A DNA stretch of 32,000 nucleotides from Candidatus Saccharimonadota bacterium. GTDB taxonomy: Bacteria; Patescibacteriota; Gracilibacteria; Absconditabacterales; Absconditicoccaceae. The notes beneath the pieces were generated by a model, which saw only the letters and a list, made by a program, of their open reading frames with translations, did no database searches and was not told where the DNA came from. Made by a program: the position numbers and the translations under genes. The first letter of the stretch is position 1, and each line of letters begins with the position of its first letter. Where the stretch lies: NCBI GenBank assembly GCA_965231145.1, contig OZ246420.1, forward strand, positions 270,001 to 302,000, written 5' to 3'. Positions 2,651 to 32,000 of the stretch are shown here, piece by piece.

Positions 2651-5600
2651 CCATGATTGTTCATTTTTTATCATATTCTTTCTAATGGTCAGAGTATTTC
2701 AGTGGGATATAACTCGACTCCTGCTCTTTCTTTGAGACAACCATATAACAATCTTGCGTTATGAGGAGGAGATCCTTTTTCGTCGTGATGACTGTTGTGA
2801 CCGCTCATAGAGTCAGGAGTAGAAAGTCCATCTGCTGGATTGGCAAACGCTTTAAGAGCGTATAGCTGAACGTTATCTCGCCCGATAATTATAGGATTGC
2901 ATGGTTTATGAGCGACATATTATTCTGATATAAAAAAGTGAACAGCGCAATATGCGAAAGGTATGGCACAGGCAGCACTGAGTAAGTCTCTTGTAGAAGC
3001 CGCGTGAGGAGTCTATCGTCCTCTTGGTGTGACGATTGAGCATGGAGAGTTTGATGCTCGGGCCTGAAATTTTATGCTGTATGAATCATATTTGGTAGAG
3101 TGGCAAAGAGATTATCAATTTGATATAAACGCACTGATGGGAACAACGGGGGTTGTTTTTCCAATGTTCTTAGATCAGGAACAATCTTCTCGAACATGAT
3201 GAGTTGCTGTAGCGCAGCTTAATGCACATAGAAATAATCCAGGAAAAATATTTCTCGTAGGTCCGAAATATCAATATTCATATGGTAGTGATAATTTGCA
3301 TCTTACTAATACGTGATCGAAATTTCTCGGCGAAATGCTAGCGAAGGTTATGTATAAGGTGGCGATACAGTGACAAACATGGAATCCGCTTATGCCTACT
3401 TCAGTCATAAGAACATGAGGTAATGCTATCCTCGTGAGTTTTAATATCCCAGTTGGAACACTCAATATCGATACGTGATCGGTAGCAGCACGTCAAAATT
3501 ATGGATTTGAATACTATCAGAGCGGAGGTACAGCTACTACAATTAGTGGAGTAAGGCTTTTGAGTTGAAATACTATGGTAGAAATAACGTTGAGTGGGGG
3601 ATTCGATGGAACTGGCCAAAAACTGCGCTATGCGTGGACGTGCTGATTTCCTGTTGTTACAGGTCAATGGGGTCATTGTGCGAATGCAAGCTCATGACTT
3701 TTTGTCGGTGGTAACATTCGTGATAGTGATTCGAGTATTTCTCCATCAGTAGATGGAACGGGACTGCCTTTATATAACTGGCTCGTCACTTTTGATGAAA
3801 GTATCATCACTCCTAGTGTTCCAAATGCGCCTACAAATGTCACAGCAGTTGCGAGTAGCTGACAAGCTATCATTTCATTTAGCTGATCGACCAATAGTGG
3901 TGGTGCAGCTATCACTGAGTATGTAGTTGTTTCCTCTCCATGATCTATTACATTTACGGGAACAGGAAGTCCTATTACGGTAACATGACTGACGAACTGA
4001 GTGAGCTATACGTTCGCAGTAGCAGCGAAGAATTATGTGGGAACAGGAACCTTCAGTAGTGCGTCAAATCCTGTAGTGCCTGCAACAATACCAACCGCAC
4101 CGACGAACGTCGCGGCGACAGCAAGCAGCTGACAAGCAGTGGTGGAATTCAGCGGCTCATCAAGTAGTTGATGGTCTACTATTTTGTATTATATAGCAAC
4201 CTCATCACCGTGAAATATAAGCTTCACCGGAACATGAAGTCCGATCACGGTAACATGATTGACGAACGGAGTCTCATATACCTTCACTGTAGAGGCATAC
4301 AATGCAATAGGAACGTGAGAAATAAGTAGTCCATCAAATGCGGTAGTTCCAGCGACAGTGCCAAATGCGCCGATCAACGTCGCGGCGACAGCAAGTAGCT
4401 GACAAGCAGTGGTAGCATTTAGCGGTTCGACTAATAGTGGTTGATCAGAGATTTTGTATTATGTGGCAACATCAACTCCGTGAAACATATCATTTACGGG
4501 GACTGGAAGTCCCATCACGGTAACGTGACTGACCAATGGAGTGAGTTATACATTCACAGTAGCAGCGGTTAATGCTATTGGTGCCGGAGCAACAGGATTA
4601 TCAAATGCTGTTATTCCTGCAACAGTACCAGGTGCGCCAACAGCTGTAAGTGCAACATCAAGTAGTGGTCAGGCGATTGTCTCATTTACCGCTCCGGCAA
4701 ATAATGGCTGAACTGGAATACTCTATTATATAGCAACCTCATCACCGTGAAATATAAGCTTCACCGGAACATGAAGTCCGATCGCGGTAACGTGATTGAC
4801 GAACGGAGTGAGTTATACATTTACAGTAGAAGCGTATAACGCGGTATGAACAGGAGCGGCAAGTAGCGCATCAAACGCAGTGATACCAGCAACGGTGCCA
4901 ACAGCACCGACGAATGCAACAGCAGTAGCATGAAGCGGACAAGCTATTATTTCATTCAGCTGATCTACCAATAGTGGGGGCTCACAGATTCTTTATTACA
5001 TCGTTACTTCATCACCAGGAAGCATCTCGCTTACGGGAAGTGAAAGCCCGATAACTATTACAGGTTTGACCAATGGCGTGAGTTATACATTTACAGTAAT
5101 AGCGGTCAATGCTATAGGAACATCATCAGCAAGTAGTGCCTCAAATGCAGTAGTTCCTGTGACACTTCCGGGTGCGCCAACAGGGGTGAATGCAACATGA
5201 GGAAATGCACAAGCTACTATTTCATTTACTCCGCCAGCAAGTAATGGAGGCACTGGTATAGTAGAATATATCGTCACATCAAATCCGTGAAACATTATAT
5301 TTACGGGGACTGAAAGTCCCATCACGGTAACGTGATTGACCAATGGAGTGAGTTATACATTTACTGTAGTAGCAAGAAATAGAGTAGGTTCGTGAGATGC
5401 AAGCGCAGTATCAAATGCTGTTATTCCTGCGACTGTCGCAAATGCACCGACGAATGTGGCAGCGACATCGAGCAGCTGACAAGCTATTGTGTCGTTTAGC
5501 TGATCGACTGATAGCGGAGGATCTGCCATCTTGTATTACATTGTAACATCAAGCACAGGAAATATTGTTGTAACATGAGCAGATAGTCCTATTACAGTCG

Positions 5601-8209
5601 CGGGATTGACGAATGGAGTTACATATGCGTTCACTGTAAGTGCTTACAATGCAGTAGGAACAGGAACAGCAAGTAGTGCTTCAAATGACGTCATGCCTAT
5701 TACGGTGCCAACAGCTCCGATCAATGTCTCCGCGACATGAGGTAATCAGCAGGCGACGATCAGATTTACTTGATCGATAAATAACGGTGGAACCTGAATC
5801 TTGTATTATGTGGCAACATCAAACCCAGGAAACATATCATTTACCGGAACATGAAGTCCGATCACGGTAACGTGATTGACTAATGGAGTGAGCTATACAT
5901 TTACCGTCGCTGCAATAAATGGAGCGGGTACGGGAGTATTGAGCAGCTCATCAAATGCTGTAATTCCAGCAACAGTAGCAAACGCACCAACCAATATCAT
6001 AGCAACAGCAAGTAGCTGACAGGCGGTTGTGTCCTTTAGTGGATCGAGTGATGATGGATGATCGACAATCCTTTATTACGTAGCGACATCAAATCCAGGA
6101 AACATTAGTTTTACTGGTACATGAACTCCAATAATTATAGAATGATTGACCAATTGAGTGTCATATACGTTTACGGTAGCTGCAAGAAATGCAGTTGGAA
6201 CCGGAGCGGCGAGTGCTGCGTCAAGCAGCGTGACACCAGTAACGATGCCATGAGTACCATCAAACATCCAGGGAGCAGGAACGCTGGGGGAAGCAATATT
6301 TGATTTTGATGCACCAGTGTATAGCGGAGGATCTGCGTTACTGTATTATACGATTAGATCAAGCACATGACAGCTAGCAAAAACTGGAGTAAATAGTCCA
6401 ATGACACTAACATGACTCACCAATGGAGTAACATATACATTCTTTATCGCAGCAGTAAATGCGCAGTGAGAAGGAACAAGCGGGGCAGTAACATTTACTG
6501 TCACAACTCCAACCACTATTCCGAGTGAGCCTACGAATATCACAGCGATAGCATGAAGTTGATCAGCATTGCTCAGTTTCAGCACCCCGACTGATAATGG
6601 AGGATTACTTATTGATTATTACGCTATTAGATCATCTACAGGTGCTCTCATAAAGACAGGAGCAAATAGCCCAATAAGGATGACATGATTACAGAATGGA
6701 ATAAGTTATGCATTTAGCGTCTCAGCAGTAAATGGAGAGTGAGAAGGTCCTAGCGACACAGTAACGATAGAGCCGATTGCTCTTATTGTAAATGGTGGTA
6801 GCATAAGTGTTATACTATGATCTACAAGTATGATAGCAAATTGGACGACAACTATTAGAGCTTCAACACAAATCCAGTATGGTATTACGACATGATATAC
6901 ATTGCAGAATACGGAAAGAGACGTATCAAATCGTGTGACCTTACATAGTGGGAATATCCAATGATTGCTTACCTGTACAAAGTATAACTACAGAATTATT
7001 GGTTCAGATGATGAAGGATATCGCTATACAGGAACAAATAGCACATTCACCACGCTAGGCTGCCCAAACAATGCGCCAATTCTCACACAAGAAGAAGAGA
7101 TTGTAGAGGTGCCAGTAGGATGAGTGTTTACTATGACATCAACATTGGGAACGACGTTAGAGCTTATTATCCCTGAGGACGTAGTACTTATCATACCAAC
7201 CCTTCTCTTCCAATGAAAACAATTGGAAGCAAGTACCGCAATTGGTTCTCTTGGCAAGCCATCTAGTGAACTTATTCAGGTGTCAGCGCTCTATGATCTC
7301 CAAGCATATAGTGGGGATACAGATCGCATGACGACCTTTGAAACAGGTCTTACGATGACGTTGAGTTATCGTGATCAGGATGTGAGTTGAGTAGATGAAA
7401 GTACATTAAAAATCTACAGTCATGATGGAACAAGCTGGTCAGAACTTGATAACTGTGTGGTAGATACAGTCAATAAGAACGTTACATGTAATACATCACA
7501 TTTCTCAGCATTCTCCATCTTTGGAGTAGCACTAGGAGTAACGCCAAGTTCTCCATCAGTATGAGGAGGTGGTGGATGAGTGTATCTGACGAAGGATGTG
7601 TGTCCAAACGGAGATTACTCACTGAGCTACTATGACAAGACATGTAGTAGTGTATGACTACCAAACATTGAACAATGAATACTTCGCCTCGCGTTGAACA
7701 AATGTACAGCACAAAATGGCGAAGAGCAGCAATCATACTGCTTCAACCGCGCGATCGGCTCTACAACGATGCCTACATTCATGCAGGCACGTTACTACGA
7801 TCAGATCACGAGAGCGCAGCTGTCGAAGATCATGGGAGAGTTTGCAAAGAATATACTCTGAAAGACTCCAGATAAGAGTAAGCAATGTACGTTTACAGGA
7901 GAAGATCCGGACGGATTAGCAGCATATATGATCCAGGCATGTCAGTTAGGACTGATGAATACAAGCAGACCAAATGACATACTGACAAGAGGAGAGTATA
8001 TGACGGTGCTTTCAAGAATGTTATATGGTAAAACGCATGAACAGACGAATGTGGAAAGTGAAGAACATCCATTCTACGAGTATCATATGGAGCAGTTGTA
8101 TAAGGAATGATTGATCAATAGAAAAGAGCCACTAGTGAAAGCACAAAGACTTGTACCATTCTTGACGCTCTACAGACTCGCACAGAAGCTAGAAAAAGAA
8201 TCAAGATAA
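2..8209 (+). CDS. Giant secreted/cell-surface adhesin-like protein, 5'-partial (2,735 aa in window, table 25). Architecture: 3x [LamG/concanavalin-like lectin + FN3], SASA/SGNH-like esterase-like domain, 11 tandem FN3, two further beta-sandwich domains, Gly linker, Cys motif, SLH-like C-terminal repeats.
   Basis: I hand-translated frame 2 codon by codon from 2 to 8209. There is no TAA or TAG until TAA at 8207-8209, and roughly 95 in-frame TGA. The four plus-strand frame-2 ORFs in the supplied track (242, 977, 2171, 7928) all lie in this frame. LamG_3-like motifs are present (LDDVQLWDSVLTEAQI, MDDVEMWNSALTPAQI, VDNAEMWDSTLTPTQV), as are FN3 motifs (TDYQIEYK...TGL..N..YDFRV.A.N..GTG). A terminator follows immediately. 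Confidence 0.85.
2650..3810 (+). other. Domain of the giant protein: putative SASA/DUF303-type (SGNH-like) carbohydrate O-acetylesterase fold.
   Basis: The ordered motifs resemble the SASA family: HILSNGQSISVGY (GQSN-like nucleophile block), GVTIEHGEFDA (QGEsD-like block) and YGSDNLHLTNTGSKFLGEMLA (D..H block). This is motif-level recognition only. Confidence 0.4.
3821..6780 (+). repeat. Array of 11 tandem FN3 domain repeats inside the giant gene, period 267-273 nt (about 90 aa).
   Basis: Repeat starts (P-x-A-P-T-N-V) are at 3821, 4091, 4361, 4628, 4898, 5168, 5438, 5708, 5978, 6248 and 6521. The consensus is ..AP.NV.AT.SSGQA.VSFSGS.NSGGS.ILYY.ATS.PGNISFTGTGSPITVTGLTNGVSYTFTV.A.NA.GTG..S..SN.V.P. 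Confidence 0.9.
7562..8209 (+). other. C-terminal anchoring module of the giant protein: GGGGGG linker, CPNGDYSLSYYDKTC motif, then SLH-like repeats.
   Basis: The translation reads ...HFSAFSIFGV..VGGGGGGVYLTKDVCPNGDYSLSYYDKTC...YCFNRAIGSTTMPTFMQARYYDQITRAQLSKIMGEFAKNILG...AAYMIQACQLGLMNTSRPNDILTRGEYMTVLSRMLYG...EQLYKEGLI. The (a..Gl......itR.e...m..r) pattern resembles S-layer-homology-type wall-binding repeats. Confidence 0.45.
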
Positions 8210-8212
8210 TAG

Positions 8213-8238
8213 AAAAACTCCCATCTAGGGAGTTTTTT
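8213..8238. terminator. Bidirectional rho-independent terminator shared by the convergent giant gene and the CHC2 gene.
   Basis: The sequence aaaaactccc-atcta-gggagtttttt forms a perfect stem (actccc/gggagt) flanked by an A-run and a T-run. The TAG stop of the minus-strand gene (8225-8227) lies in the loop. Confidence 0.8.
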
Positions 8239-8878
8239 CTTCAGAAGGAAAATTTAATTTGAGCTGATTAGGATTTGACGGCGGTGGAGGATCGAGTTGA
8301 TCTTGTCGGTATTTCCTTGTGTCTCCTAGTACCATAGAAAGAAATGTGGGTAGCGTATGAGATCGTCCACATCCAAAACATTTGACCATCCCCATGGTTT
8401 TACTGATACAACAGGAAGCTGTCTTCTCTTTGTGATGAGGACAAAGCACGTACAAGTTAGAATATGTTTCTCTGGCGATCGCATTTCATAGTCTCTCTCT
8501 CAGAAACGTGGTAATAAACTCACGGTCATAACCTGTACGCATGTCTCTATTGCGATTTTCCATGCTATGTAATCGCGCTCTCGTCTTCTTTTTTACTCCT
8601 TTATTTTTACCCGTAGGTTTTCTTCCCACACTCAAAGCTCTCGCAATTTCATTTTTTATCCTTAGTTGAATGATTTCTTTACTTCTTTTCACCCATGTAT
8701 CATACATTTCTTGATCAACCGATAAAGGAGCATCCTCATACAGAGTAAATGCGTCTTCCGGATTGTTTTTATATATCTCATATGAGTCAATTGCAGCTCT
8801 TTCCATGTTTTTTATAGAAAAACAGGAGGGCAAACCCTCCCGATAATCATAATGATCTAAAGAACATGTCTTCGTCAC
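8225..8878 (-). CDS. Hypothetical protein with a C-terminal CHC2 (DnaG-type) zinc finger, 217 aa. It is two track ORFs joined through TGA=Gly at 8486-8488.
   Basis: LCPHHKEKTASCCISKTMGMVKCFGCGRSH matches the primase zinc-finger pattern CP.H.EKT.S...(n)CFGCG. ORFs 8486..8878 and 8225..8455 are in the same frame and separated only by a TGA. The start (GTG at 8878 or an internal ATG) is uncertain. Confidence 0.6.
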
Positions 8879-8920
8879 ATTGGCCCAATTATAGAAAAAG
8901 TCAACACTGATGCAAGCGCA

Positions 8921-8943
8921 GAAAAACCCGGCTTTAGCCGGGC
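8921..8943 (-). terminator. Rho-independent terminator downstream of rlmN.
   Basis: The minus strand reads gcccggctaaagccgggtttttct (stem cccggc/gccggg, loop of 4, T-run). Confidence 0.75.
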
Positions 8944-8949
8944 TTCTGT

Positions 8950-8986
8950 ATTATATTGAGAATTTCGAATTCAACATTTCGAATTA
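8950..8986 (-). repeat. Stop-codon-abutting 37-nt conserved motif, copy A (after rlmN).
   Basis: The minus strand reads TAA TTCGAAAT GTTGAA TTCGAAAT TCTCAATATAAT. The TAA is the rlmN stop, and the terminator hairpin follows 6 nt later. Confidence 0.8.
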
Positions 8987-10165
8987 TTTTTTAAGTACTC
9001 TCAGGTTCTTCCCCGTCTCTTTAATCTCTTCACGATGTTCATATACTTTTTCATATCCCAGCTGACCGCAGGCACCTTTGACTCAGCGTCCGAGTGTATC
9101 TCTGACGGTTACCGTCACTCATCCTTTTTCAAGGATCTCTTTAAATCTCATGATCTGGTTTCTGCTTGGCTCTTCGAGGTCGATAGCGGGGTTTTCGTTG
9201 TATGGGATAAGATTGATATGTGAGTGAGCAGGTCTTGCTTTGAGGAGGTCTATGAGCTGATATGCGAGTTCTGGCTGGTCAGTCTTTCCCTTGATCATAA
9301 TGTACTCATAGAACACGCTCTTGCCTGTCTTTGTCGTATATTCATCGATCTGTGCCATGAGCTTGTCTAACGTGTACATCTTCGTGATCGTTGGGATAAG
9401 CTCGGAGCGGAGCTCCTGATTTGGTGCGTGGAGTGACAATGCAAGCATGACATCAAGATTGTCATCGATCATCTTTTGTATACCAGGAATAATTCCGCTG
9501 GTAGAGATGGTTACGTGACGACGTGAAAGTGAAAATCCGTTTTGGTCGAGGAGATAGTGTACAGTAGCTTTTACATTGTCATAGTTGAGGAGTGGTTCTC
9601 CCATACCCATGAAGACGATATTTCTGATCATGTACCATGAGTTGTCTTCTTTTTTGCCGAGCTTCTTTTTGAGGTATGCGTTTGCATAGATAACCTGTCC
9701 GATGATTGTTTGGACATCGAGGTTTTTGAGGAGTCCAAGTTTCCCCGTTACGCAGAAGATACATCCAACTGAACATCCTACTTGTGACGAGATACATAAG
9801 GTGAGACGGTTGAGTTTTTTACCGTCAACGAGGGTTGTGAACCCTTTCTTATATTCTTCTGATCCTTCGATAATTTCATGATAGTGGAACATAATTACTG
9901 ATTCGATCACGTTGCCGTCAGGGAGCTTGAAAAGAAACTTCGTTGTGTCTTCAGACTCCTGCATTTCCTGGAGCTCAAAAGGCACAATAGTGAAATTGTC
10001 CGACAATGAATCTCTCAGGTCTTTGCTGAGGGCAGTCATCTCTTGGAAATCAGTCACAGAGTTTTTAAAGATTTCGTGAAAAATCTGTTTCAGACGAAAT
10101 GGCTGAACCTTATGCAGAACTCTTCGTTCTTCTAATTTCTCTTTATCAAAAATAGAGGCTTTCAT
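8984..10165 (-). CDS. rlmN: 23S rRNA/tRNA adenine-C2 methyltransferase RlmN (radical SAM), 393 aa.
   Basis: Radical-SAM CxxxCxxC is present in GCSVGCIFCVTG, with MGMGEPLLNY also present. Reading through TGA at 9119 and 9083 recovers the conserved C-terminus VTVRDTLGRGVKGACGQLGYE (family pattern vR...G.di.AACGQL). The true stop is TAA at 8984-8986. Confidence 0.85.
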
Positions 10166-15252: not shown

Positions 15253-15342
15253 TCTTAAAAATCAGAAAGGTTGAATGTTAAATGATAAATACCTTATTGT
15301 ATTTCACATTTAAAATTATTTTTTAGTTTGTAAGTGTATGAG

Positions 15343-16971
15343 ATGTATCGCCCATGAGGATTTCCCGAATTTAATCCACAGCAACAGGCTGTGTTCGATG
15401 CTATAGTAGAGACGCTTAACGATGTTTTCAGACAATATCACTATGAACACATCTGGACTCCAGCAGTAGAGTCTGTAGATATTTTGAAAAAAGGAGGAGA
15501 TATTATTGATAAGCAAGTGTATGGTTTATATGGTCTTGCTCAGGGAGTAGAAGATGTGAAAGACTATGCGCTTCACTTTGATCTTACGATCCCTCTCGCA
15601 AGATATATTCTCGATCATAGGAATGATCTGTCATTTCCATTTCGCAGATACCAGATGCAGCCCGTATGGCGTGGTGAAAGAACGAAAAGAGGAAGATTCA
15701 AAGAATTCCGGCAGTTTGATGTGGACGTAGTCCGGCCTTCGGAAATGAATATTGGAACGTGGTATGACACCGAAACTGTGGCTGTACTTTCGCGCGCGAT
15801 GGAAGCAGTATGTAAAAAGTTTTCTATTACGATCGATTCAGTTTTGAAGATGTCGCATATCGGATTGACGAAGGCGATGCTGGAAAGCTTTGGTGTGAAT
15901 GAGGAGACGAGAGATAAGATTCTTTGATTGCTTGATGGTTACTATAAGATAACGCATGAAGAGTTTACAGAAAAACTCAATGCATTGGCTCCACAAGAGG
16001 TTGCGGCGCTTATCCAAAAAGTTATTGCTACTAAAGATCTCTCGCTTATGGCAGATTATGAACACTATGATGCTATGAGAAATATTTTGACGGGACTCGA
16101 TGAACTCAATATTAACTATGAGTATGATATCTGTATCGTGAGAGGACATAACTACTATAAGTGAATGGTTTGTGAGTGGTTTGATAAGTCAGACATTGCA
16201 CTTGGTTCGCTTGCTGCTGGAGGAAGATATGATAACATCACCGACTTTATCGATCCGAAGCAGTCATTTAGTGGAGTGGGAACGAGCCTTGGAAGATTTG
16301 TCTATCTCGCGATTGAGAAGATTGGTCTTATACCTCCATGTGAGTCATATCTGTTTGTGAACTTTGAAGATACAAACAAAGACATTATCGCGCTTTATGG
16401 AAAATTCCTTTCTCAGTGAAAAGTATGCGAGATGTATCCAACAGCTGCGAAGCTTGCAAAACAGTTTGAATATGCTGATAAAAAAGGGCTTTCACATGTT
16501 GTTATCTTAGGAGGATCAGAGAAAGAAAAACATGTATTCAAATTAAAAAACTTACAAATAGGAGAAGAAAGAGAATATGCTATGGTCGACTGTTATGGAG
16601 CAATAGTTTTTTGTAATCATAAGGTTCTGCTCGTAAAAAATCATCAAGGAGGACGGGGGTTTCCAAAGTGAAAATGAGAGAAAGGGGAAAGTATTGATGA
16701 AAGTATTCTCAGAGAGTTAGAGGAAGAAACAGGTATTAATAAAGTAAAATTACTTTCGAGTCATCTCTCTCAGACAAGTTATTTTTATGATAATGGAGAG
16801 TTGATATTCAAAACTATTCAGTATAAAGTTTTTGAAACACCTAATGATAAAGTCTCTCTACAAAAAGAAGAACTTGCTGAATATAAGTGGGCTACTCGTG
16901 AAGAGGCATTAAAACTTCTGCCGCAAGATATGCATCATCTTATTGATCCAGTAAATAATTATTTTCTTTAA
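15343..16971 (+). CDS. hisS: Histidyl-tRNA synthetase fused to a C-terminal Nudix hydrolase domain, 542 aa.
   Basis: Class II aaRS/HisRS motifs are present: FRRYQMQPVWRGERTKRGRFKEFRQFDVDV, HNYYK-G-MVCEWF, AAGGRYD, plus an anticodon-binding domain (VVILGGSEKEK). The same frame continues without a stop into a perfect Nudix box G-KGEKG-E-SIDESIL-RELEEETGI. Five track ORFs share one frame and are joined by TGA=Gly. The N-terminus MYRPGGFPEF is recovered through TGA at 15355. Confidence 0.85.
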
Positions 16972-18187: not shown

Positions 18188-19534
18188 ATGGTAAGTCTCG
18201 AAGATATCAAACTGCCTCCTCATAATATAGATGCGGAAAAGTGATTGCTCTGTTGTATTCTTCTCGATAATGAGGTGATGTTTTTGTGTGACAGCATGCA
18301 CTTATTGCCGGAAGATTTCTACCAGAAAGAACACCAGATGATCTTTGAAGGTATGAAAGATCTCTGGGGGAGTCGTAAGACGATAGATATAATTACTCTC
18401 GGAGATGCTCTAGTAAAAAAGCAATATTTTGATCTTGTCGGGGGAAATGATTACCTTTATGAGATATCAACGGCAGTCATGACGACTGCAGTGGGTGGAG
18501 AGTACTCAAGGATGGTAAAGGAGAAGGCGATCCTCAGGAATGTACTTAAGGTTGCACAATGAATTATCGGAGATGTCTATGAGCATAGGGAAACGATAGA
18601 GATTATTGATACTATTCAGAAGCGTATCTTCGAGTTGACACAGTTTGACATGTCAGATTCGACAAAGCACATTAAAGAGATCTTGGAGCAGCGTGTAGAA
18701 GAGCATATGGAGCTGGTGGATAACCCAGAAAAGCTCAATGAACATAAGATTATGTCCGGGTACTTTAAGCTCGATGACTATACAAGTGGCTTTAAACCTG
18801 GAGAGTTGGTTATCCTTGCAGCCCGTCCTTCTATGGGTAAAACGGCTTTTGCCCTCAATCTTTTGCTCAATGCAGCACTCAAACATGGTAAATCGGTGGC
18901 ATTTTTTTCTCTGGAAATGGGTAGTGAGCAGATTGTAGACAGATTGTTATCAGCGGTTTCGGAGATTCATATGGCTAGAATGCAGAAGGGACAGCTCAAT
19001 GAGTCTGACTTTGCAGAGCTGGGAGAGGCTATGGAAAAGCTAGGTGATACCAGTATTTTCATCGATGATCAAGGTGGTGTTACTATCCCGGCTCTTAAGT
19101 CTAAGCTTAGAAAGCTGAAAATCGAACGTGGACGCCTCGATATGGTAGTTATCGACTACCTTCAGCTCATGAGCGGCGGCAATAGTAAGTTCGCCGGAAA
19201 CAGAGTTCAGGAGATTTCCGAGATTTCTCGTGGTCTAAAAGAGCTTGCAAGGGAGCTAAAAATCCCTATTATTGCACTCTCCCAGCTTTCACGTAATGTG
19301 GAAGCACGTGTGGACAAAAAACCACAACTTTCCGACCTCAGAGAGTCTGGGTCGATCGAACAAGATGCCGATACGGTGATCATGCTCTATAGAGACGAGT
19401 ACTATGACCCGGATACGGATAGAAAATGAACGGCAGATGTCATCATCAGGAAGAACAGAAATGGTCAGGTGGGTGAGGTTGAGCTCTCGTTCAGAGGAGA
19501 AATACAAAAATTTTATGACGTTCAAAAATCTTAA
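18188..19534 (+). CDS. dnaB: Replicative DNA helicase DnaB, 448 aa.
   Basis: The N-terminus reads LPPHNIDAEK-G-LLCCILLD. Walker A is AARPSMGKTAF. Also present are DYLQLM, SQLSR and RESGSIEQDAD, and the C-terminus DRK-G-TADVIIRKNRNGQVGEVELSF. Three in-frame TGA fall at 18242, 18560 and 19427. Confidence 0.9.
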
Positions 19535-23459: not shown

Positions 23460-23496
23460 ATTATATTGAGAATTTCGCATTTAGAATTTCGAACTA
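23460..23496 (-). repeat. Stop-codon-abutting 37-nt conserved motif, copy C (after gyrA).
   Basis: The minus strand reads TAG TTCGAAAT TCTAAA TGCGAAAT TCTCAATATAAT. The length and register match copies A and B, and the TAG is the gyrA stop. Confidence 0.75.
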
Positions 23497-26016
23497 TTCC
23501 TCGTCACTTTGAGCTTCTTCATCGGCTTTCTTTTCAGCCTTAGTTTCTGCTTTTCTTTCTTCTTTCCATGCGGTGTTTTCTGCTTTTTCTTCCCATGGTC
23601 TGTAGATCGTTTCGATAGTTCCTGTGACGATCTTTTCCATAGGAGTATCCGGCATATCGAGGAGTACCTTATCTGAGTGGATAGTCTTGAGTTCTCCTGT
23701 AGTGAGTTTAATTCTTACTGAACCTTCCACCATAGCGATACCACCGGTAATCTTATCTTTACCTTCGATCTCAGCTACCTGAACGATCTTTCCACCACGC
23801 TTACCAAACTGAGATTTGCCGAACTTGAGATCTTCAAGTGCTATCATCTTCGCAGCGTTAGTACCATTGATAAGGATAAATGGCTCGTTCTTATAGATGA
23901 ACATAGCCGCCGGTCCATCACTTTCGTCCTCCACAGAGATAGCTTTTACGCCTGCAGCAGTTTTACCCATAGGGCGACATTGCTCTTCAGGGAAGAGAGA
24001 AAGGTATCCTTTTTGTGACAGTACTCCAATCTTGTCCTGGTCTCTCACTGCTTCCACTGCGATGATCTTCTCTTTGTCCGCGAGGGTCATGACTGTTGTA
24101 GGGAATTTCTTGAATGAGAGTAACAGTTCTTTTTTAATTTTTTTGAGACTGTTCTGATTTGAAAGGAATACGAGCTCTTTGTAATCATGGAGCATAGAAC
24201 TACAGAAGATCACATTTCCCTTGAGATTCCATTGTTCTTTTGGATCAACGGCAGGGGATTTCATGTTATGAGAGCCGATGTCCTTGAGTCTTTGGATAAC
24301 AAGTTCTCCTTTGTCTGTGATGACGATCAATTTATCTTGGTTATGTGTGTAGACAAGTTCGATCGTATCTTCAGGAAGAACATTTACTCTTGACTGGTAG
24401 AGAATGCGGAACGAATGATCAGCGCCGATCCAGAGGATCACATCTTCTTTTTTAGCATCTTCCTGCTTGAGCAGCTCTTTCATGCTTCCTGAGAGATTTG
24501 CGGCCCCGCCGTCGCCAACAAGCTCTGTTCTTCTTTCATCGCCATACGTTTTCTTCATATATTTCATTTCATCCGTCACCACTTTATCGAGTTTCTTTGG
24601 ATCATTGATGATACCTTCAAGATATTCGATAAGCTTCTTTTTCTCATCCATTTCATCCAAGATCTTCTGGATTTCAAGACCCACGAGGGATTGGAGTCTC
24701 ATCTGGAGGATATATTCCGCTTGAACATCTGAGAACTCAAACTTCTTTCCCATAAGTTTATCCTTCGCTTCCTGCTTATCATTTGAATGTCTAATAGCAT
24801 GGATTACATCATCCAAGATATCAAGCGCACGCTTCAAACCTTCGAGGATGTGCATCCTGTCTTTTGCCTTTCCGAGCTGGAATACAGATCTTCTGTAAAC
24901 AACTTGTCTTCTGAAGTCAGTAAACTCAAGTAAGAGATCCTTGATGTTAAGGAGTCTTGGCTGCATACCTTTTTCTACGAGCGTTACATTATTGATGTTG
25001 AAATTTGTCTGTAGCTCTGTGTACTTAAAGATTTTTGTGAGCACCGCATTTGCATCAACTCCTTTTCTCAAAGTGATACTTACTCTCATTCTTACTCTGT
25101 TAGACTCATCACGGATGTCTGTAACACCATCGATCTTCTTGTCTACCACGAGTTCTCCGATCTTCGCTACAAGCGAAGATTTATTTACCTGGTAAGGTAT
25201 TTCATCTATAACGATAATTTTTCCGTTTTTCCCTTCTTCAATATGTGTTTTCCCTCTCACGGTAATACCACCTTTTCCTGTTTCGTATACTTTCTTGATG
25301 TTCTCTCTGTCATACATAAGACCTCCAGTAGGGAAGTCAGGACCTTTGATAATTTCCATGATATCATCTATCGTTGCATCTGGGTTATCCATCAGCAGCA
25401 AACACGCATCAATAACCTCAGTAAGATTATGTGGTGCCATATTTGTTGCCATACCTACAGCGATACCCATCGTACCATTACAGAGGTGATTTGGAAATTT
25501 CGTTGGCATCATGATCGGCTCCTGACGAGACTGATCATAATTTTCTCTCCAGTCTACTGTATCTTGATCGATATCTTCGATCATCTCTTCAGCAATCTTT
25601 GTCAGTCTCGCTTCCGTATATCTCATTGCAGCGGCGCCGTCTCCATCGATAGAACCATAGTTACCTTGTCCATCAACGAGGGGATACCTCAAAGAAAATG
25701 GTTGAGCAAGTCTTACCATAGCATCGTATACAGAGGAGTCTCCATGGGGATGGTACTTTGCCAGTACTTCACCGACTACTGCTGCAGACTTTCTATACTT
25801 AGCATTGTGCATAAGTCCGATGTCGTACATCGCGTAGAGGATACGTCTGATCACTGGTTTCATACCATCTCTTGTGTCTGGAAGTGCACGAGAAACGATA
25901 ACCGACATCGCATAGTCGATATATGACTGAGTGATTTCTTTTTCGATCGAATGAGGAGTATTGTTTTGTACTATCTCCACTGGTTCATTTTGTTCTTTTT
26001 CTTTCTTTTCAGCCAT
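23494..26016 (-). CDS. gyrA: DNA gyrase subunit A, 840 aa.
   Basis: This is an intact ORF. It carries [20 protein letters not shown] and the active-site [10 protein letters not shown], plus a C-terminal beta-pinwheel region and an acidic/lysine tail. It contains no in-frame TGA. Confidence 0.95.
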
Positions 26017-26063
26017 TTCTTCCTGAAAAACAATAACTAAAAGTGCGTTCGAATAACCAATTC

Positions 26064-26091
26064 ACTATAGAGATTTAGTATGTGTTTGCAA
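26064..26091 (-). promoter_or_regulatory. Candidate sigma70-type promoter for gyrA.
   Basis: The minus strand reads TTGCAA-16 nt-TATAGT, about 50 nt upstream of the gyrA ATG. This is sequence resemblance only. Confidence 0.3.
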
Positions 26092-28772: not shown

Positions 28773-31700
28773 TTATAGAATAGAACGAAGTCTTTCGATG
28801 CCCATCGGATTGAGCTGTCTTTCTATGGTCCCGATCGTTACTGTATGTTCGCCCGGATGATCCTTAATGATCTGCGCAAGAGTCTGGAGGAGAGATGGAT
28901 TGTCCGGTAAACTAAACTGCATTGGTCACATTGCCTCTTCTCCGCTAGCAGCTCCCGATGGAGTAGATTGAGCTTCACCGTTTCACATATCATTGTTTTC
29001 AGGATTGCCCGAATTGCTATCGTCCTGATCTGTTTCATCTTCATCTGTGAGTCCATCCGGAATCGTATCGGTATGCTCAATCTGAATAACTTCTCCTGTT
29101 TCTACATCTACCATTTCATCTTCCAGATCATTATTTAACGACAGGATGTTCATACCAAGTCTTGTTGTCTTCACTTCACTCACTGATTCATTGTTAAATT
29201 TGCCAGCTTTCTTCGCGTCTTCGGTAATTCTTTCAAGTGATGTCTTGACGATCTTACTGACTTTAAGCGACCTGTTTTTCCATCCCTCGATAATGAGTAT
29301 GTCAAATTTCTGTAGATCTAACGTCTCTTTCATAAATATTTCTATCTCATCAGAAAGGTCTTCGACCGAAATGAAGTATCATTTCTTTTTTGCTCTCTGG
29401 ATATTTTTGACATAACATAAGATCTTCACATTTCCAAAGGGTTGCTCTTTATCATAGTATTTGAACATACTGATAAGCGAAAAGCTTCCTTTGATGAATG
29501 GATATAAACCATCGAAAGGATGACCCGATACAAATGTTTTAAATACTTCATATTCCGTCAATAGTCTTTCCATCTTTGTGCTTTCTTCTGTCTTGGCGAG
29601 TTGCAGCGCGGGCTTTACTGAAGCCATGGCAAAGAGACTATTACTTGCGCTTTCCGATGAAGACATTTTTGTCCAGTCGATGATGCGCGCAATGTTATGG
29701 AGGATCGTTTTACGATCCATAAAACCGTTGAATGCACCAGCTTTTGCAAGTGACTCTATCGTTTTTTTATTGATGACGCCTGCACATCTCGTGAGAAAAT
29801 CTTCAAGTGACGTGTATGGTCCATTTTTGCTTCTTTCATTTTCGATCGTTTCTCCTACTTCGCTTCCGACTCCTTTTATACACTGAAATCATAGTCTGAT
29901 AGTGTCATCAATCGCAGCAACGTGAGTGAATGAATCATTGACATGAGGAGGAAGTACACGGTATCCTTGGAGCTGTAGTTCATTGATGAACTTGCTGAGC
30001 TTTTCCGTGTCTTCTTCTACCGATCTCAGGAGGGCAGCATTAAATTCGATAGGGTAATTTGCTTTCAAATATGCTGTCTGATACGAAAGCATTCCATAGG
30101 TCACTGAGTGCGACTTATTGAATGAGTAGAACGCAGCTGGTTCAATCATCTTCTCATAGACCCATCTTGAAGTCTCTTCTTTATAGTTTCTGAACGTCGC
30201 AGCTTTTTCGATAAACTGACCTTTAATCTGCTCGATAACCTCCTTAATTTTCTTACCGATACCGCGTCTGAGATTGTCCGCTTCTGCAAGTGAAAATCAT
30301 GCCATGGCTTGAACCAAGAACATGAGCTGCTCCTGATAGACGGCAATACCATAGGTGAGGCCAAGGATCGGATCAAGATCTTCTGTGAGTTTTCTTTGTT
30401 CTTCTAACGCGGTTTCTTCATCGTACTTTCCAATGAGCAGATCATAGAGTTCAGGGAGCATGTATTCAATTGGCTCTTTCCCATGCTTTCTGTCAATATA
30501 TCTTGGAATAAATTCCATAGGTCCTGGACGATACAGCGCACCCATCGCGATAATATCGTTTACGTCAGTTGGCTTTAGTTTTACCAAGAAATTTCTAATA
30601 CCATCTCATTCAAACTGAAATACTCATGATGTATCTCCTTTCTGTAACACTCTTTCAAAGGTGTTCTTATCGTCGAGCGCAGGCTCAAACACCATCGTAC
30701 GGAAATAATCTTCAAATAATTTCGGCAGCTTCTTGCCGGCTTTTGTATATTTTGCTTTCACGATCTTCATCGTGTTTTTAATAAGCGTCAGCGTTCTGAG
30801 GCCCAGGAAGTCCATCTTCAAAAGACCAATGTCTTCAAGGTCGTGTCATTCGTATTGAGTTACTAATTGTTTATGTACTTCTTCGCCTGCCTTCCCTTGT
30901 GGCTTTGGAGGATGCTGTACCGGCGCAAAGTGAGTGATGACGTCAGGTGCAATAATGATACCACATGCATGTACACCAGTTCCTCTTACCGTACCTTCGA
31001 GTTTGATCGCTTCGTCAAAAGTCTTCTTTAAGATAGGATCGTTGTCATACATGTTTTTGAGATCTTCCATCTGGTCGATAGACTCTTTGATGGTCTTTTG
31101 TGTAATGAGCGATGCGATGAAATTTGATCTGTCGAACGGTACGCCCATGGTTCTTGCAACGTCTTTAAACGCAGCACGTGCAGCCATGGTCATGTATGTT
31201 CCGATATGTGCAACTTTGTCTTTCCCGTATTTGTCTGCAACGTATTCTACTACCTTGTCTCTCTGTACGTCTTCGAAGTCGACGTCGATATCGGGCATAG
31301 ATACACGAGCAGGATTGAGAAATCTTTCGAAGAGGAGACCGTATGGAATAGGATCTACGTCGGTGATCCCTGTACAATATGCCATGAGAGAACCCGCAGC
31401 AGAACCACGACCTGGACCCACAGAAATATTGTTGTTCTTAGCCCGATTGATAAAGTCCTGTACGATAAGGAAGTATGTGTTATATCCCATTTCCTTTACC
31501 ACTTTGAGTTCATACTCTAAACGTTCGATATAACTTCCTATCGTTAGCTCGCCGTAAAATGTATTTGCATGTTTTTCAATAAACGTTTTTTTATTGTCAG
31601 TGTATGTTGCTCTTGTGAGTTCTCTGAGTTCTTCCGGTGTCGTTTCTGTCAGTTTTTTTACAAGCGTACCTGCAGAGGTAATTTCTACCATATCTAAAAG

Positions 31701-31787
31701 ATCTTGGTCTGACCAATGATTTTGTTGAAATCTTCTTCTCATGCCTGCGTAGGACAAATAACGCAGCTCAAATTCAAAAATATCCAT
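28773..31787 (-). CDS. dnaE: DNA polymerase III alpha subunit (DnaE), 1,004 aa. The ORF begins after the position of the PHP domain.
   Basis: Family motifs: YFLIVQDFINRAK, VGPGRGSAAGSLMAYCTGITDVDP, LLFERFLNPARVSMPDIDVDF, GVHACGIII, TQYE-G-HD..LLKMDFLGLRTL, TS-G-VFQFE-G-DG, AMA-G-FSLAEADNLRRGIGKK, FNKSHS and IRL-G-FQCIKGVG. Eight in-frame TGA all fall in one frame. TAG lies immediately upstream of the ATG at 31787, and the stop is TAA at 28773-28775. Confidence 0.9.
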
Positions 31788-31941
31788 CTATTCAACTTAA
31801 ATCTTAAGACTAAAACCTAAAAACTTTTATAGGTACTATCATTGATGAAAATTTCCTTAGAAAAGCTTTTAGTTTTAAAGTTTACGTTTTTAGTTCGTTA
31901 GAGCGTTTATAAAAAAATGAGAATGAAAATCTATCAATAAT

Positions 31942-31970
31942 AAAAAAATCCTCACCGATGCAGTGAGGAT
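31942..31970 (-). terminator. Rho-independent terminator of an upstream minus-strand gene that ends at the window edge.
   Basis: The minus strand reads atcctcactgcatcggtgaggattttttt (8-bp stem, T-run). Confidence 0.7.
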
Positions 31971-32000
31971 GTTGTATTGTTTGCTTAATAGATACTATGG

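What the first reader, a model, noticed from the sequence alone, without database searches (positions are those of the whole stretch)
28773..31970. DnaE ORF lacks the entire N-terminal PHP domain (split or truncated Pol III alpha)
The ORF begins at ATG 31787 with MDIFEFELRYLSYAGMRRRF, and a TAG lies immediately upstream. The first family-conserved block (RLEYELKVVKEMGYNTYFLIVQDF) lies only about 90 aa in, whereas in E. coli-type DnaE it is near residue 330. The PHP domain of about 280 aa is therefore missing from this ORF. The 5' flank is an AT-rich spacer of about 160 nt preceded by a strong minus-strand terminator (31942-31970) that belongs to a gene ending at the window edge. Three explanations remain: the PHP module is encoded as a separate polypeptide (possibly that upstream gene), it is encoded elsewhere, or it has been lost. 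PHP contributes to Pol III stability and, in some lineages, to proofreading, so any of these is noteworthy.
Basis: partly seen in the sequence, partly recalled or inferred. Interest (0 to 1): 0.65.

Follow-up and report, generated by a model that had tools for sequence, protein, structure and literature searches.

The report
Replicative polymerase split into two genes
In this TGA-recoded bacterium (order Absconditabacterales/SR1) the main DNA-replication polymerase is encoded by two genes, a 305-aa PHP piece and a 1004-aa polymerase core, and the split is shared by the whole order, which gives a natural system for asking what the PHP domain does.

Summary
Read with code 25 (TGA = Gly), window 28773-31787 (-) encodes a 1004-aa DnaE with palm, fingers and HhH domains but no PHP domain, and it first aligns with E. 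coli alpha at residue 320.

The PHP domain is not lost. I extended the contig through identical public assemblies. A 305-aa DnaE-type PHP gene lies 4 kb upstream on the same strand, outside the window. A RuvA-like gene, gyrB and a histidine-phosphatase-family gene lie between the two pieces. The gene at the window edge is that phosphatase-family gene, not the PHP gene.

The two pieces cover one DnaE family model end to end without overlap. No intein or intron is present.

The split is old and conserved. 51 of 80 related species-level loci carry a stand-alone PHP piece of about 305-320 aa. In 24 of the 26 loci with at least 9 kb on both sides, no polymerase core is nearby. Core pieces all begin at the same motif, M..EFELRY. 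Standard-code relatives, and at least one TGA-recoded relative, have a fused gene. The break lies in a roughly 20-aa insertion loop.

All split PHP pieces have lost 3-6 of the nine metal ligands, so the domain is probably structural.

The most likely mechanism, which is inferred, is a non-covalent two-chain alpha subunit. I rate this a new variant of a known kind. I could not check the literature fully.

The parts
28773..31787 (-). dnaE-C: the polymerase-core piece of a split DnaE. It is 1004 aa under code 25, with 8 in-frame TGA = Gly codons and a TAA stop at 28773-28775.
   Evidence: The ORF and its TGA positions are. It aligns with Taq alpha 377-1047 and E. coli alpha 320-969. It matches NCBIfam NF004226 positions 307-1068.
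31533..31787 (-). N-terminal head of dnaE-C (aa 1-85), beginning MDIFEFELRYLSY. It is the start of the palm region just after the break point.
   Evidence: The start M..EFELRY is conserved in homologues at 45-80% identity. It aligns with the segment YLRxLxxxGLxxRF plus a lineage-specific insertion in fused relatives. AlphaFold2 predicts it as helical with pLDDT above 90.
30801..31580 (-). Palm (NTPase) domain, aa 70-329. It contains the catalytic aspartates D166 and D168 (PDIDVDF, 31275-31295) and D326 (KMDFLGL, 30798-30818).
   Evidence: PF07733, E = 3e-92. These columns are invariant in alignment A3. The aspartates align with the corresponding Taq residues.
30198..30794 (-). Fingers domain, aa 332-530.
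   Evidence: PF17657, E = 1.5e-47.
29709..29966 (-). (HhH)2 DNA-binding domain, aa 608-693.
   Evidence: PF14579, E = 1.4e-26.
31788..31937 (-). AT-rich intergenic spacer upstream of dnaE-C. It is presumed to hold the gene's own promoter. No PHP remnant is present.
   Evidence: The spacer 31788-31947 is 22.5% GC against 41% for the gene. All three frames are full of stops. The sigma-70 scan reported no site in the spacer.
31938..31970 (-). Intrinsic-terminator-like hairpin (ATCCTCACTGCATCGGTGAGGAT) plus a T run. It ends the upstream gene and uncouples dnaE-C from upstream transcription.
   Evidence: L001 9818-9850; window coordinate = 41788 minus L001 coordinate.
31995..32000 (-). Last sense codon (CCA) and TAG stop of the upstream 196-aa histidine-phosphatase-family gene. 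This is not the PHP gene.
   Evidence: Sequence. The ORF is L001 9203-9793. Pfam His_Phos_1, E = 3e-5.

Best explanation
The alpha subunit of the replicative polymerase (DnaE) has undergone gene fission.

- **dnaE-N.** This gene lies outside the window at L001 5035-5952. That would be window-equivalent 35836-36753, about 4 kb upstream on the same strand. It encodes a 305-aa DnaE-type PHP domain plus a short C-terminal helix.
- **dnaE-C.** This gene is window 28773-31787 (-). It encodes the 1004-aa remainder, from the first palm helix through fingers, (HhH)2 and the C-terminal region.
- **Expression.** Each gene has its own start and stop and, most likely, its own promoter.
- **Break point.** The break lies in a roughly 20-aa lineage-specific insertion loop. 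The loop sits between the conserved LFPxYxSP motif (E. coli 279-285) and the YLRxLxxxGL helix.
- **Age.** The fission is ancestral to the Absconditabacterales (SR1) lineages sampled here.
- **Inferred mechanism.** The two polypeptides probably reassemble non-covalently through the normal PHP-palm/thumb interface into a two-chain alpha subunit.
- **Inferred role of PHP.** The PHP piece has lost part of its metal site. It probably acts as a structural stabiliser or docking module, for example for a DnaQ-type proofreader, and not as an exonuclease.
For: **Shown**
- The core ORF lacks PHP.
- A 305-aa ORF on the same contig scores PF02811 at 92.6 bits and aligns with E. coli alpha residues 6-284.
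- The AlphaFold2 model of its 71%-identical homologue superposes on the PHP domain of Taq, M. tuberculosis and E. coli alpha with TMq 0.77-0.80. Free-standing PHP phosphoesterases reach only about 0.4.
- The two pieces cover NCBIfam DnaE model NF004226 at positions 6-291 and 307-1068.
- Of 80 species-level loci found with the PHP-piece profile, 51 have a stand-alone 305-320-aa ORF, all TGA-recoded, and 24 have a fused full-length DnaE. Of the 26 stand-alone loci with at least 9 kb on both sides, 24 have no core nearby.
- In a search of 1.84 billion protein representatives, the top roughly 60 clusters are almost all stand-alone pieces. Full-length proteins begin only below 213 bits.
- Core homologues at 45-80% identity all start at M..EFELRY. 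In distant relatives they have no PHP gene within 10 kb upstream.
- Both pieces are under purifying selection. pN/pS is 0.19-0.26 for N and 0.14-0.17 for C, with synonymous sites saturated.
- The junction alignment places the break in an insertion that is shared with fused TGA-recoded relatives and absent from standard-code relatives.
- The catalytic aspartates of the core are intact.

**Inferred**
- Non-covalent assembly of the two chains.
- A structural or docking role for PHP. This rests on the loss of 3-6 of nine metal ligands in every split piece and on the established role of E. coli PHP in binding epsilon (PMC3919608).
Against: - There is no direct evidence that the two proteins bind each other. 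The available tools could not model a complex.
- In most lineages the two genes are unlinked, so no operon-level coupling supports a complex.
- I could not scan whole genomes for a second, intact DnaE or a PolC. I therefore have not shown that the split enzyme is the sole replicase.
- A degenerate PHP metal site is also a hallmark of DnaE3, which accompanies PolC.
- Neither gene has an obvious Shine-Dalgarno sequence.
Confidence: 0.8

Rival explanations
1. The PHP piece no longer belongs to the polymerase. The core works as a PHP-less alpha subunit. The free 305-aa protein has taken on an independent or only transient role, for example as an exchangeable adaptor or regulator or in another DNA transaction.
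For: The two genes are unlinked in most lineages. The PHP gene often sits next to uvrD/pcrA, not next to replication genes. Its metal site is degenerate.
Against: The piece keeps DnaE-specific features beyond the PHP barrel. These include the LFPxYxSP motif and the following helix, which normally lead into the palm. It resembles alpha-subunit PHP far more than free-standing PHP enzymes. With a dead metal site an independent enzymatic role is unlikely. It is under purifying selection.
Confidence: 0.13
2. The two pieces are joined after transcription or translation, by a split intein as in cyanobacterial DnaE or by trans-splicing of an intron.
For: Precedent only. Cyanobacterial dnaE is split and re-joined by a split intein (cited in PMC3919608).
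Against: - The N piece ends 15-25 aa after a conserved DnaE motif, and the C piece begins directly with conserved DnaE sequence. No space is left for intein halves.
- Pfam finds no Hint or intein domain.
- Rfam at a permissive threshold finds no intron or ribozyme between or beside the pieces.
- The intervening genes are on the opposite strand, and in most species the pieces are more than 10 kb apart or on other contigs.
- The split site, near E. coli residue 290, differs from the cyanobacterial one, which is represented by separate NCBIfam models of 876 and 449 positions.
Confidence: 0.02
3. The split is an assembly or sequencing artefact, or a decaying pseudogene, in this one genome.
For: MAG-derived sequences often contain breaks. 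One relative (L076) and L057 do show frameshift-like fragmentation.
Against: Three independent assemblies carry the identical sequence. The same piece boundaries occur in 51 species-level genomes, including a complete genome, CP006913.1. Start and stop positions are conserved. Both pieces are under purifying selection.
Confidence: 0.01

Closest known systems
Canonical single-chain DnaE1 (Pol III alpha; E. coli, Thermus aquaticus, M. tuberculosis; NCBIfam NF004226 / TIGR00594)
   Same: It has the same domains in the same order: PHP, palm, thumb, fingers, (HhH)2, then the C-terminal region. The catalytic aspartates are intact. The best PDB matches are Taq alpha (518 bits for the core) and the alpha-subunit PHP domain (TMq 0.8 for the PHP piece).
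   Different: Here the chain is broken between PHP and palm into two genes, which are unlinked in most members. The core alone scores 772 bits, below the NF004226 equivalog cutoff of 1002. Four of the nine PHP metal ligands are replaced in the window organism.
Cyanobacterial split dnaE (dnaE-n / dnaE-c with the naturally split DnaE intein)
   Same: The replicative alpha subunit is encoded by two separate genes that can lie far apart on the chromosome.
   Different: The cyanobacterial split lies far downstream in the polymerase and is repaired by protein trans-splicing. The split here is at the PHP/palm boundary, has no intein halves, and must work as two chains.
E. coli-type and DnaE3-type degenerate PHP domains (metal site lost; PHP acts as a structural and epsilon-binding module)
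   Same: Several of the nine metal ligands are replaced. In the window organism the pattern is H H Q Y E Y G N H, against the consensus H H D H E H C D H. This implies a non-catalytic PHP.
   Different: In those enzymes the PHP is still covalently part of alpha. I could not test whether a DnaQ or PolC partner exists in this lineage.
Intein-free split family-B polymerase of Methanothermobacter thermautotrophicus (PolB1/PolB2). I cite this from memory and did not check it here.
   Same: A replicative-type polymerase naturally encoded as two polypeptides that assemble non-covalently.
   Different: It belongs to an unrelated polymerase family in an archaeon, and the split site is different.

Membership tests
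DnaE-type Pol III alpha (C-family polymerase) | Palm (PF07733), fingers (PF17657) and (HhH)2 (PF14579) domains in canonical order | tested here: met
   E = 3e-92, 1.5e-47 and 1.4e-26; collinear alignment with Taq 377-1047.
DnaE-type Pol III alpha (C-family polymerase) | Catalytic aspartates (E. coli D401, D403, D555; also D405) | tested here: met
   D166, D168 and D170 in PDIDVDF, and D326 in KMDFLGL. D166, D168 and D170 are invariant columns in A3. All four align with the corresponding Taq residues.
DnaE-type Pol III alpha (C-family polymerase) | N-terminal PHP domain on the same polypeptide | tested here: not met
   There is no PHP in the 1004-aa ORF or anywhere in the window. PHP is supplied by a separate 305-aa gene 4 kb upstream.
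DnaE-type Pol III alpha (C-family polymerase) | Whole-protein score above the NCBIfam cutoff | tested here: inconclusive
   The core passes the TIGR00594 superfamily cutoff (743.8 against 434). It fails the NF004226 equivalog cutoff (772 against 1002). N and C together give about 924 bits and cover positions 6-291 and 307-1068.
DnaE-type Pol III alpha (C-family polymerase) | Beta-clamp-binding motif and OB / tau-binding C-terminal region | tested here: inconclusive
   A candidate clamp motif, NSLFAM, lies at aa 716-721, in the same position relative to the HhH domain as in Taq. The OB region aligns only weakly. The last roughly 130 aa, including an acidic low-complexity stretch, have no match.
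DnaE-type PHP domain (PF02811 as found in alpha subunits) | Pfam gathering score and the alpha-subunit PHP fold | tested here: met
   92.6 bits against a cutoff of 26.4. The model of homologue P0002 (pLDDT 86) reaches TMq 0.77-0.80 against Taq, M. tuberculosis and E. coli alpha PHP.
DnaE-type PHP domain (PF02811 as found in alpha subunits) | Nine metal-binding residues (H,H,D,H,E,H,C,D,H), the active exonuclease type | tested here: not met
   The window piece has H H Q Y E Y G N H. All 12 other split pieces examined lack 3-6 ligands. 10 of the 11 fused standard-code relatives keep all nine, and the eleventh (L074) has H at the C position.
Split-intein DnaE (cyanobacterial type) | Intein N-half at the end of the first piece and C-half at the start of the second | tested here: not met
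   The piece ends abut conserved DnaE sequence and leave no extra 100-aa and 35-aa segments. No Hint domain is found.
DnaE3 (PolC-accompanying DnaE with a defective PHP) | Co-occurrence with PolC in the same genome | not testable with these tools
   No whole-genome access was available.

The most novel reading that the evidence does not exclude
Across the whole order Absconditabacterales the replicative polymerase alpha subunit is an obligate two-chain enzyme. A catalytically dead PHP subunit has been freed from the polymerase core. It could therefore act as an exchangeable or regulated module, for example one that recruits a proofreader or controls core stability. This would be the first natural intein-free split of a bacterial C-family replicase at the PHP/palm boundary.
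Probability: 0.7. Interest if true: 0.6.

Novelty: new variant of a known kind. Interest (0 to 1): 0.55.

Why it matters
The role of the PHP domain in Pol III alpha has long been debated. It may be a proofreading exonuclease, a structural stabiliser or a platform for epsilon, and it is hard to study because deleting it from single-chain enzymes destabilises them.

A whole bacterial order that has kept PHP as a separate, conserved, catalytically degenerate polypeptide offers a natural separation-of-function system. The pieces can be expressed separately, mixed and measured.

There are also practical consequences:
- Annotation pipelines and domain-architecture surveys will miscall these genes as 'PHP domain-containing protein' and as 'partial' or 'hypothetical' DnaE, as source names already do.
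- Completeness and marker-gene tools that expect a single dnaE may be affected.
- The finding adds a second lineage-defining molecular trait to SR1, beside the UGA = Gly code.

Tried and rejected
- **Upstream gene as the PHP gene.** Rejected. It is a histidine-phosphatase-family (His_Phos_1) protein.
- **Degenerate PHP in the first 85 aa of the core.** Rejected. These residues align with post-PHP sequence in fused relatives and are predicted as a helical palm start.
- **Split intein.** Rejected on size and sequence and on the absence of a Hint domain.
- **Intron or trans-splicing.** A permissive Rfam scan of L001 4700-10300 gave only sub-threshold chance hits at terminator hairpins, to the Phe_leader and RNAI families.
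- **Short duplicated helix at the junction.** I considered that the tail of the N piece and the head of the C piece were copies of one helix, which would indicate fission by partial duplication. Rejected. Fused TGA-recoded relatives (L094, P0047, P0062, P0214) contain both segments in series, separated by a variable loop.
- **A conserved small partner gene downstream of dnaE-N.** None found. The neighbours vary, although uvrD/pcrA is frequent.
- **Whether the 4-kb linkage in the window lineage is ancestral.** This cannot be polarised. Only the closest relatives (L008, L009) share it.
- **Rate estimate.** dN/dS could only be given as pN/pS because synonymous sites are saturated.
- **Tool failures.** Every paper search failed, as did DOI and PubMed-id look-ups for two papers. 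The novelty check therefore rests on only three papers read by identifier (two by PMC id, one by DOI): PMC3919608, PMC3812714 and PMC8080830.
Full report
**1. The observation**

The minus strand of window 28773-31787 is one reading frame only if TGA is read as a sense codon. Under table 11 it breaks into eight pieces. Under table 25 it is a single 1004-aa ORF with eight in-frame TGA codons. These fall where homologues have glycine, for example TS-G-VFQFE-G-DG.

The ORF starts at ATG 31787, with TAG directly upstream and a TAA two codons further up. Pfam finds DNA_pol3_alpha at aa 70-329, DNA_pol3_finger at 332-530 and HHH_6 at 608-693, and no PHP domain. Against solved structures the alignment begins at query residue 80-85, which corresponds to Taq alpha 377 and E. 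coli alpha 320.

The 160-nt upstream spacer is 22.5% GC, against 41% for the gene. It is preceded by a hairpin plus T run at window 31938-31970. No PHP homologue is detectable anywhere in the window, by BLASTP or by a profile of the PHP-piece family.

**2. Where the PHP domain is**

The 313-aa table-11 fragment of the ORF occurs on four public contigs. Three were returned (L001-L003). L001 is identical to the window over 11155 bases and extends 10 kb beyond its end. The conversion is: window coordinate = 41788 minus L001 coordinate.

In L001 the gene that ends at the window edge is a 196-aa protein of the histidine phosphatase superfamily (L001 9203-9793). Further upstream, on the opposite strand, come gyrB (7062-9074) and a 183-aa RuvA-like HhH protein (6415-6966).

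At L001 5035-5952, on the same strand as dnaE, lies a 305-aa ORF beginning MFNHIHGHSHYSLL. It contains three in-frame TGA codons. It scores 92.6 bits on Pfam PHP, against a cutoff of 26.4. Its family profile aligns with E. coli alpha residues 6-284, including the motif LFPxYxSP, which matches E. coli LPQFPTG.

An AlphaFold2 model of its 71%-identical homologue P0002 has pLDDT 86 and pTM 0.84. It superposes on the PHP domain of Taq, M. tuberculosis and E. coli alpha with TMq 0.77-0.80. Free-standing PHP phosphoesterases reach only about 0.4.

On the NCBIfam DnaE equivalog NF004226 the small protein covers model positions 6-291 and the large one covers 307-1068. Together the two genes therefore encode one complete DnaE, without overlap or gap.

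**3. The split is real, old and conserved**

The PHP piece has a family of stand-alone homologues of 305-327 aa, down to 36% identity. All of them end 15-25 residues after LFPxYxSPxxIxxLY.

A scan of one genome per GTDB species with this family's profile returned 80 loci. I re-called ORFs under tables 25 and 11 and ran BLASTP with both pieces. The results were:
- 51 loci have a stand-alone PHP ORF. All are TGA-recoded, and they are labelled Absconditabacterales, Absconditabacteria, SR1 or unclassified. They include the complete genome CP006913.1.
- 24 loci have a fused full-length DnaE of 1118-1260 aa. These are labelled Peregrinibacteria, Peribacteria, Planctomycetota and similar, and use the standard code.
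- 5 loci are partial.
- Of the 26 stand-alone loci with at least 9 kb on both sides, 24 have no polymerase core in the locus. The two exceptions, L008 and L009, are the window's closest relatives and share its layout, with the pieces 4.2-4.6 kb apart.

A profile search of 1.84 billion representative proteins gives the same picture. The top roughly 60 clusters, at 222 bits or more, are nearly all 280-336 aa long. Full-length DnaE proteins start at 213 bits.

Homologues of the core piece at 45-80% identity all begin at M..(F/H)EFELRY..Y.GL. In distant relatives they have no PHP gene within 10 kb upstream.

Among the window lineage, L008 and L009, pN/pS is 0.19-0.26 for the PHP piece and 0.14-0.17 for the core, with synonymous sites saturated. 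Both pieces are therefore under purifying selection.

**4. Anatomy of the break**

I aligned pseudo-joined N and C pieces with fused relatives. Standard-code DnaE proteins read ...LIPSYPTPQNEK-ADVYLRMLCEEGLKERF.... TGA-recoded fused relatives carry an extra variable segment of about 20 residues between the FP.P motif and the YLR helix. These relatives are:
- L094, about 1317 aa with 7 in-frame TGA codons.
- P0047, from an NCBI record labelled Gracilibacteria.
- P0062 and P0214.

They also carry a second insertion of about 45 residues after GL..RF.

The split proteins end and restart inside the first insertion. The N piece keeps the short helix SPxxIxxLY, and the C piece starts with EFELRY. The most economical history is loop insertion in the recoded ancestor, followed by fission within that loop in the lineage leading to Absconditabacterales.

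I had considered that the two ends were duplicates of one helix. I rejected this because fused relatives have both segments in series.

The first 100 residues of the core are predicted with pLDDT above 90 as helices (3-19, 27-34, 51-60, 64-72 and 83-100). This model matches only Pol III alpha structures.

**5. State of the PHP active site**

I mapped the nine metal ligands of Taq alpha (H, H, D, H, E, H, C, D, H) through an alignment. The rationale follows PMC3919608.
- 10 of the 11 fused standard-code relatives examined keep all nine ligands. The eleventh (L074) has H in place of the C.
- The window's PHP piece has H H Q Y E Y G N H.
- All 12 other split pieces lack 3-6 ligands. H4 is never retained (Y in most, F or L in two), H6 is Y, N or S, and C7 is always G.
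- The fused recoded L094 protein is also degenerate (HLRSRSH..., TDEGN, SGNY), so ligand loss probably preceded fission.

By analogy with E. coli DnaE1 and with DnaE3, the domain is unlikely to be an exonuclease. It more probably serves as a structural or docking module (PMC3919608). The polymerase catalytic aspartates of the core are intact.

**6. Mechanism**

Shown:
- There are two separate genes with conserved boundaries.
- A terminator and an AT-rich spacer precede dnaE-C.
- Opposite-strand genes lie between the pieces.
- The pieces are unlinked in most species.

Excluded:
- Split inteins. There is no room at either end and no Hint domain.
- Intron-based joining. There are no Rfam hits, and the intervening genes run in the opposite direction.
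- Artefact or pseudogene.

Inferred: the two chains assemble non-covalently through the usual PHP-palm/thumb interface into a two-chain alpha subunit. I put this at about 0.8.

The main rival, at about 0.13, is that the PHP protein has become functionally independent of the core. I could not test for physical interaction. I also could not test whether these genomes carry a PolC, a second DnaE or a DnaQ.

**7. Comparison with what is known**

The closest known system is ordinary DnaE1, and the two pieces are its parts. The only split dnaE I found in the papers I could read is the cyanobacterial one. It is split elsewhere in the protein and is re-joined by a split intein (PMC3919608).

That survey of about 2000 genomes reports no PHP-less or PHP-split DnaE. 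The papers on the SR1 RAAC1 genome and on Vampirococcus do not mention it either.

The full-text search tool failed throughout the session. An earlier description therefore cannot be excluded. Source annotations already call the pieces 'PHP domain-containing protein' and 'DNA polymerase III subunit alpha' or 'hypothetical protein'.

**8. Verdict**

The thing itself is a conserved, order-wide, intein-free fission of the replicative polymerase alpha subunit at the PHP/palm boundary, with a catalytically degenerate PHP subunit.

It is a new variant of a known kind, not a new kind of system. Its interest lies mainly in offering a natural handle on PHP function and in the consequences for annotation. 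I score interest at 0.55.

Noticed in passing
window 15334-16971 (+): A histidyl-tRNA synthetase (tRNA-synt_His plus HGTP_anticodon) is fused at its C-terminus to a NUDIX hydrolase domain (aa 420-530). Kantor et al. 2013 (PMC3812714) reported a nudix insertion in an SR1 isoleucyl-tRNA synthetase.
   Followed up: partly
window 2-8209 (+): A giant ORF of at least 2735 aa under code 25 runs off the start of the window. I did not characterise it.
   Followed up: no
window 18188-19534 (+), 23494-26064 (-); L001 6415-9074 (-): Replication and topology genes cluster around dnaE-C. A DnaB-like helicase (judged by eye from its N-terminal motif) and gyrA (PF00521) lie inside the window. gyrB and a RuvA-like HhH protein lie between the two dnaE pieces just outside it.
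   Followed up: partly
window 28908-29150 (-), about aa 880-960 of dnaE-C: A long acidic, low-complexity insertion (DLEDEMVDVETGE...DEDETDQDDSNSGNPENND...) lies between the OB-like region and a conserved C-terminal tail (FSLPDNPSLLQTL...). It has no match in solved alpha subunits.
   Followed up: no
L001 5976-6107 and about 6233-6353 (+): Two very small, highly acidic ORFs lie directly downstream of dnaE-N (for example MFTNAELERHGFHIESENIGLEDNLKARNGENEEEEYEEEETR). It is unknown whether they are conserved or expressed.
   Followed up: no
L004, L007, L001 (upstream of dnaE-N); L018, L022, L030, L031, L036, L038, L045, L060 (downstream): dnaE-N has partly conserved neighbours across the order. 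A divergently oriented Amidase_2 (cell-wall amidase) gene lies upstream. In many lineages uvrD/pcrA lies downstream, sometimes with a roughly 120-aa ORF in between.
   Followed up: partly
L090 5636-12844 and 13160-20368: One metagenome scaffold carries a block of about 7.5 kb, including dnaE-C, twice in tandem. This is probably an assembly artefact of a repeat or a circular contig, but I did not check.
   Followed up: no
P0158 (653 aa): One representative has the PHP piece running on in frame into a downstream membrane protein. This is probably a lost stop codon or a gene-calling read-through. It is the only long outlier among the top roughly 60 stand-alone clusters.
   Followed up: no
L093 5227-8245 (GCA_030949885.1, labelled Gracilibacteria): The fused TGA-recoded dnaE of this MAG is itself interrupted. 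The PHP part lies in other frames and there is an in-frame stop near 7551. The gene is flanked by ISL3 transposase fragments. This may be decay or MAG errors.
   Followed up: no
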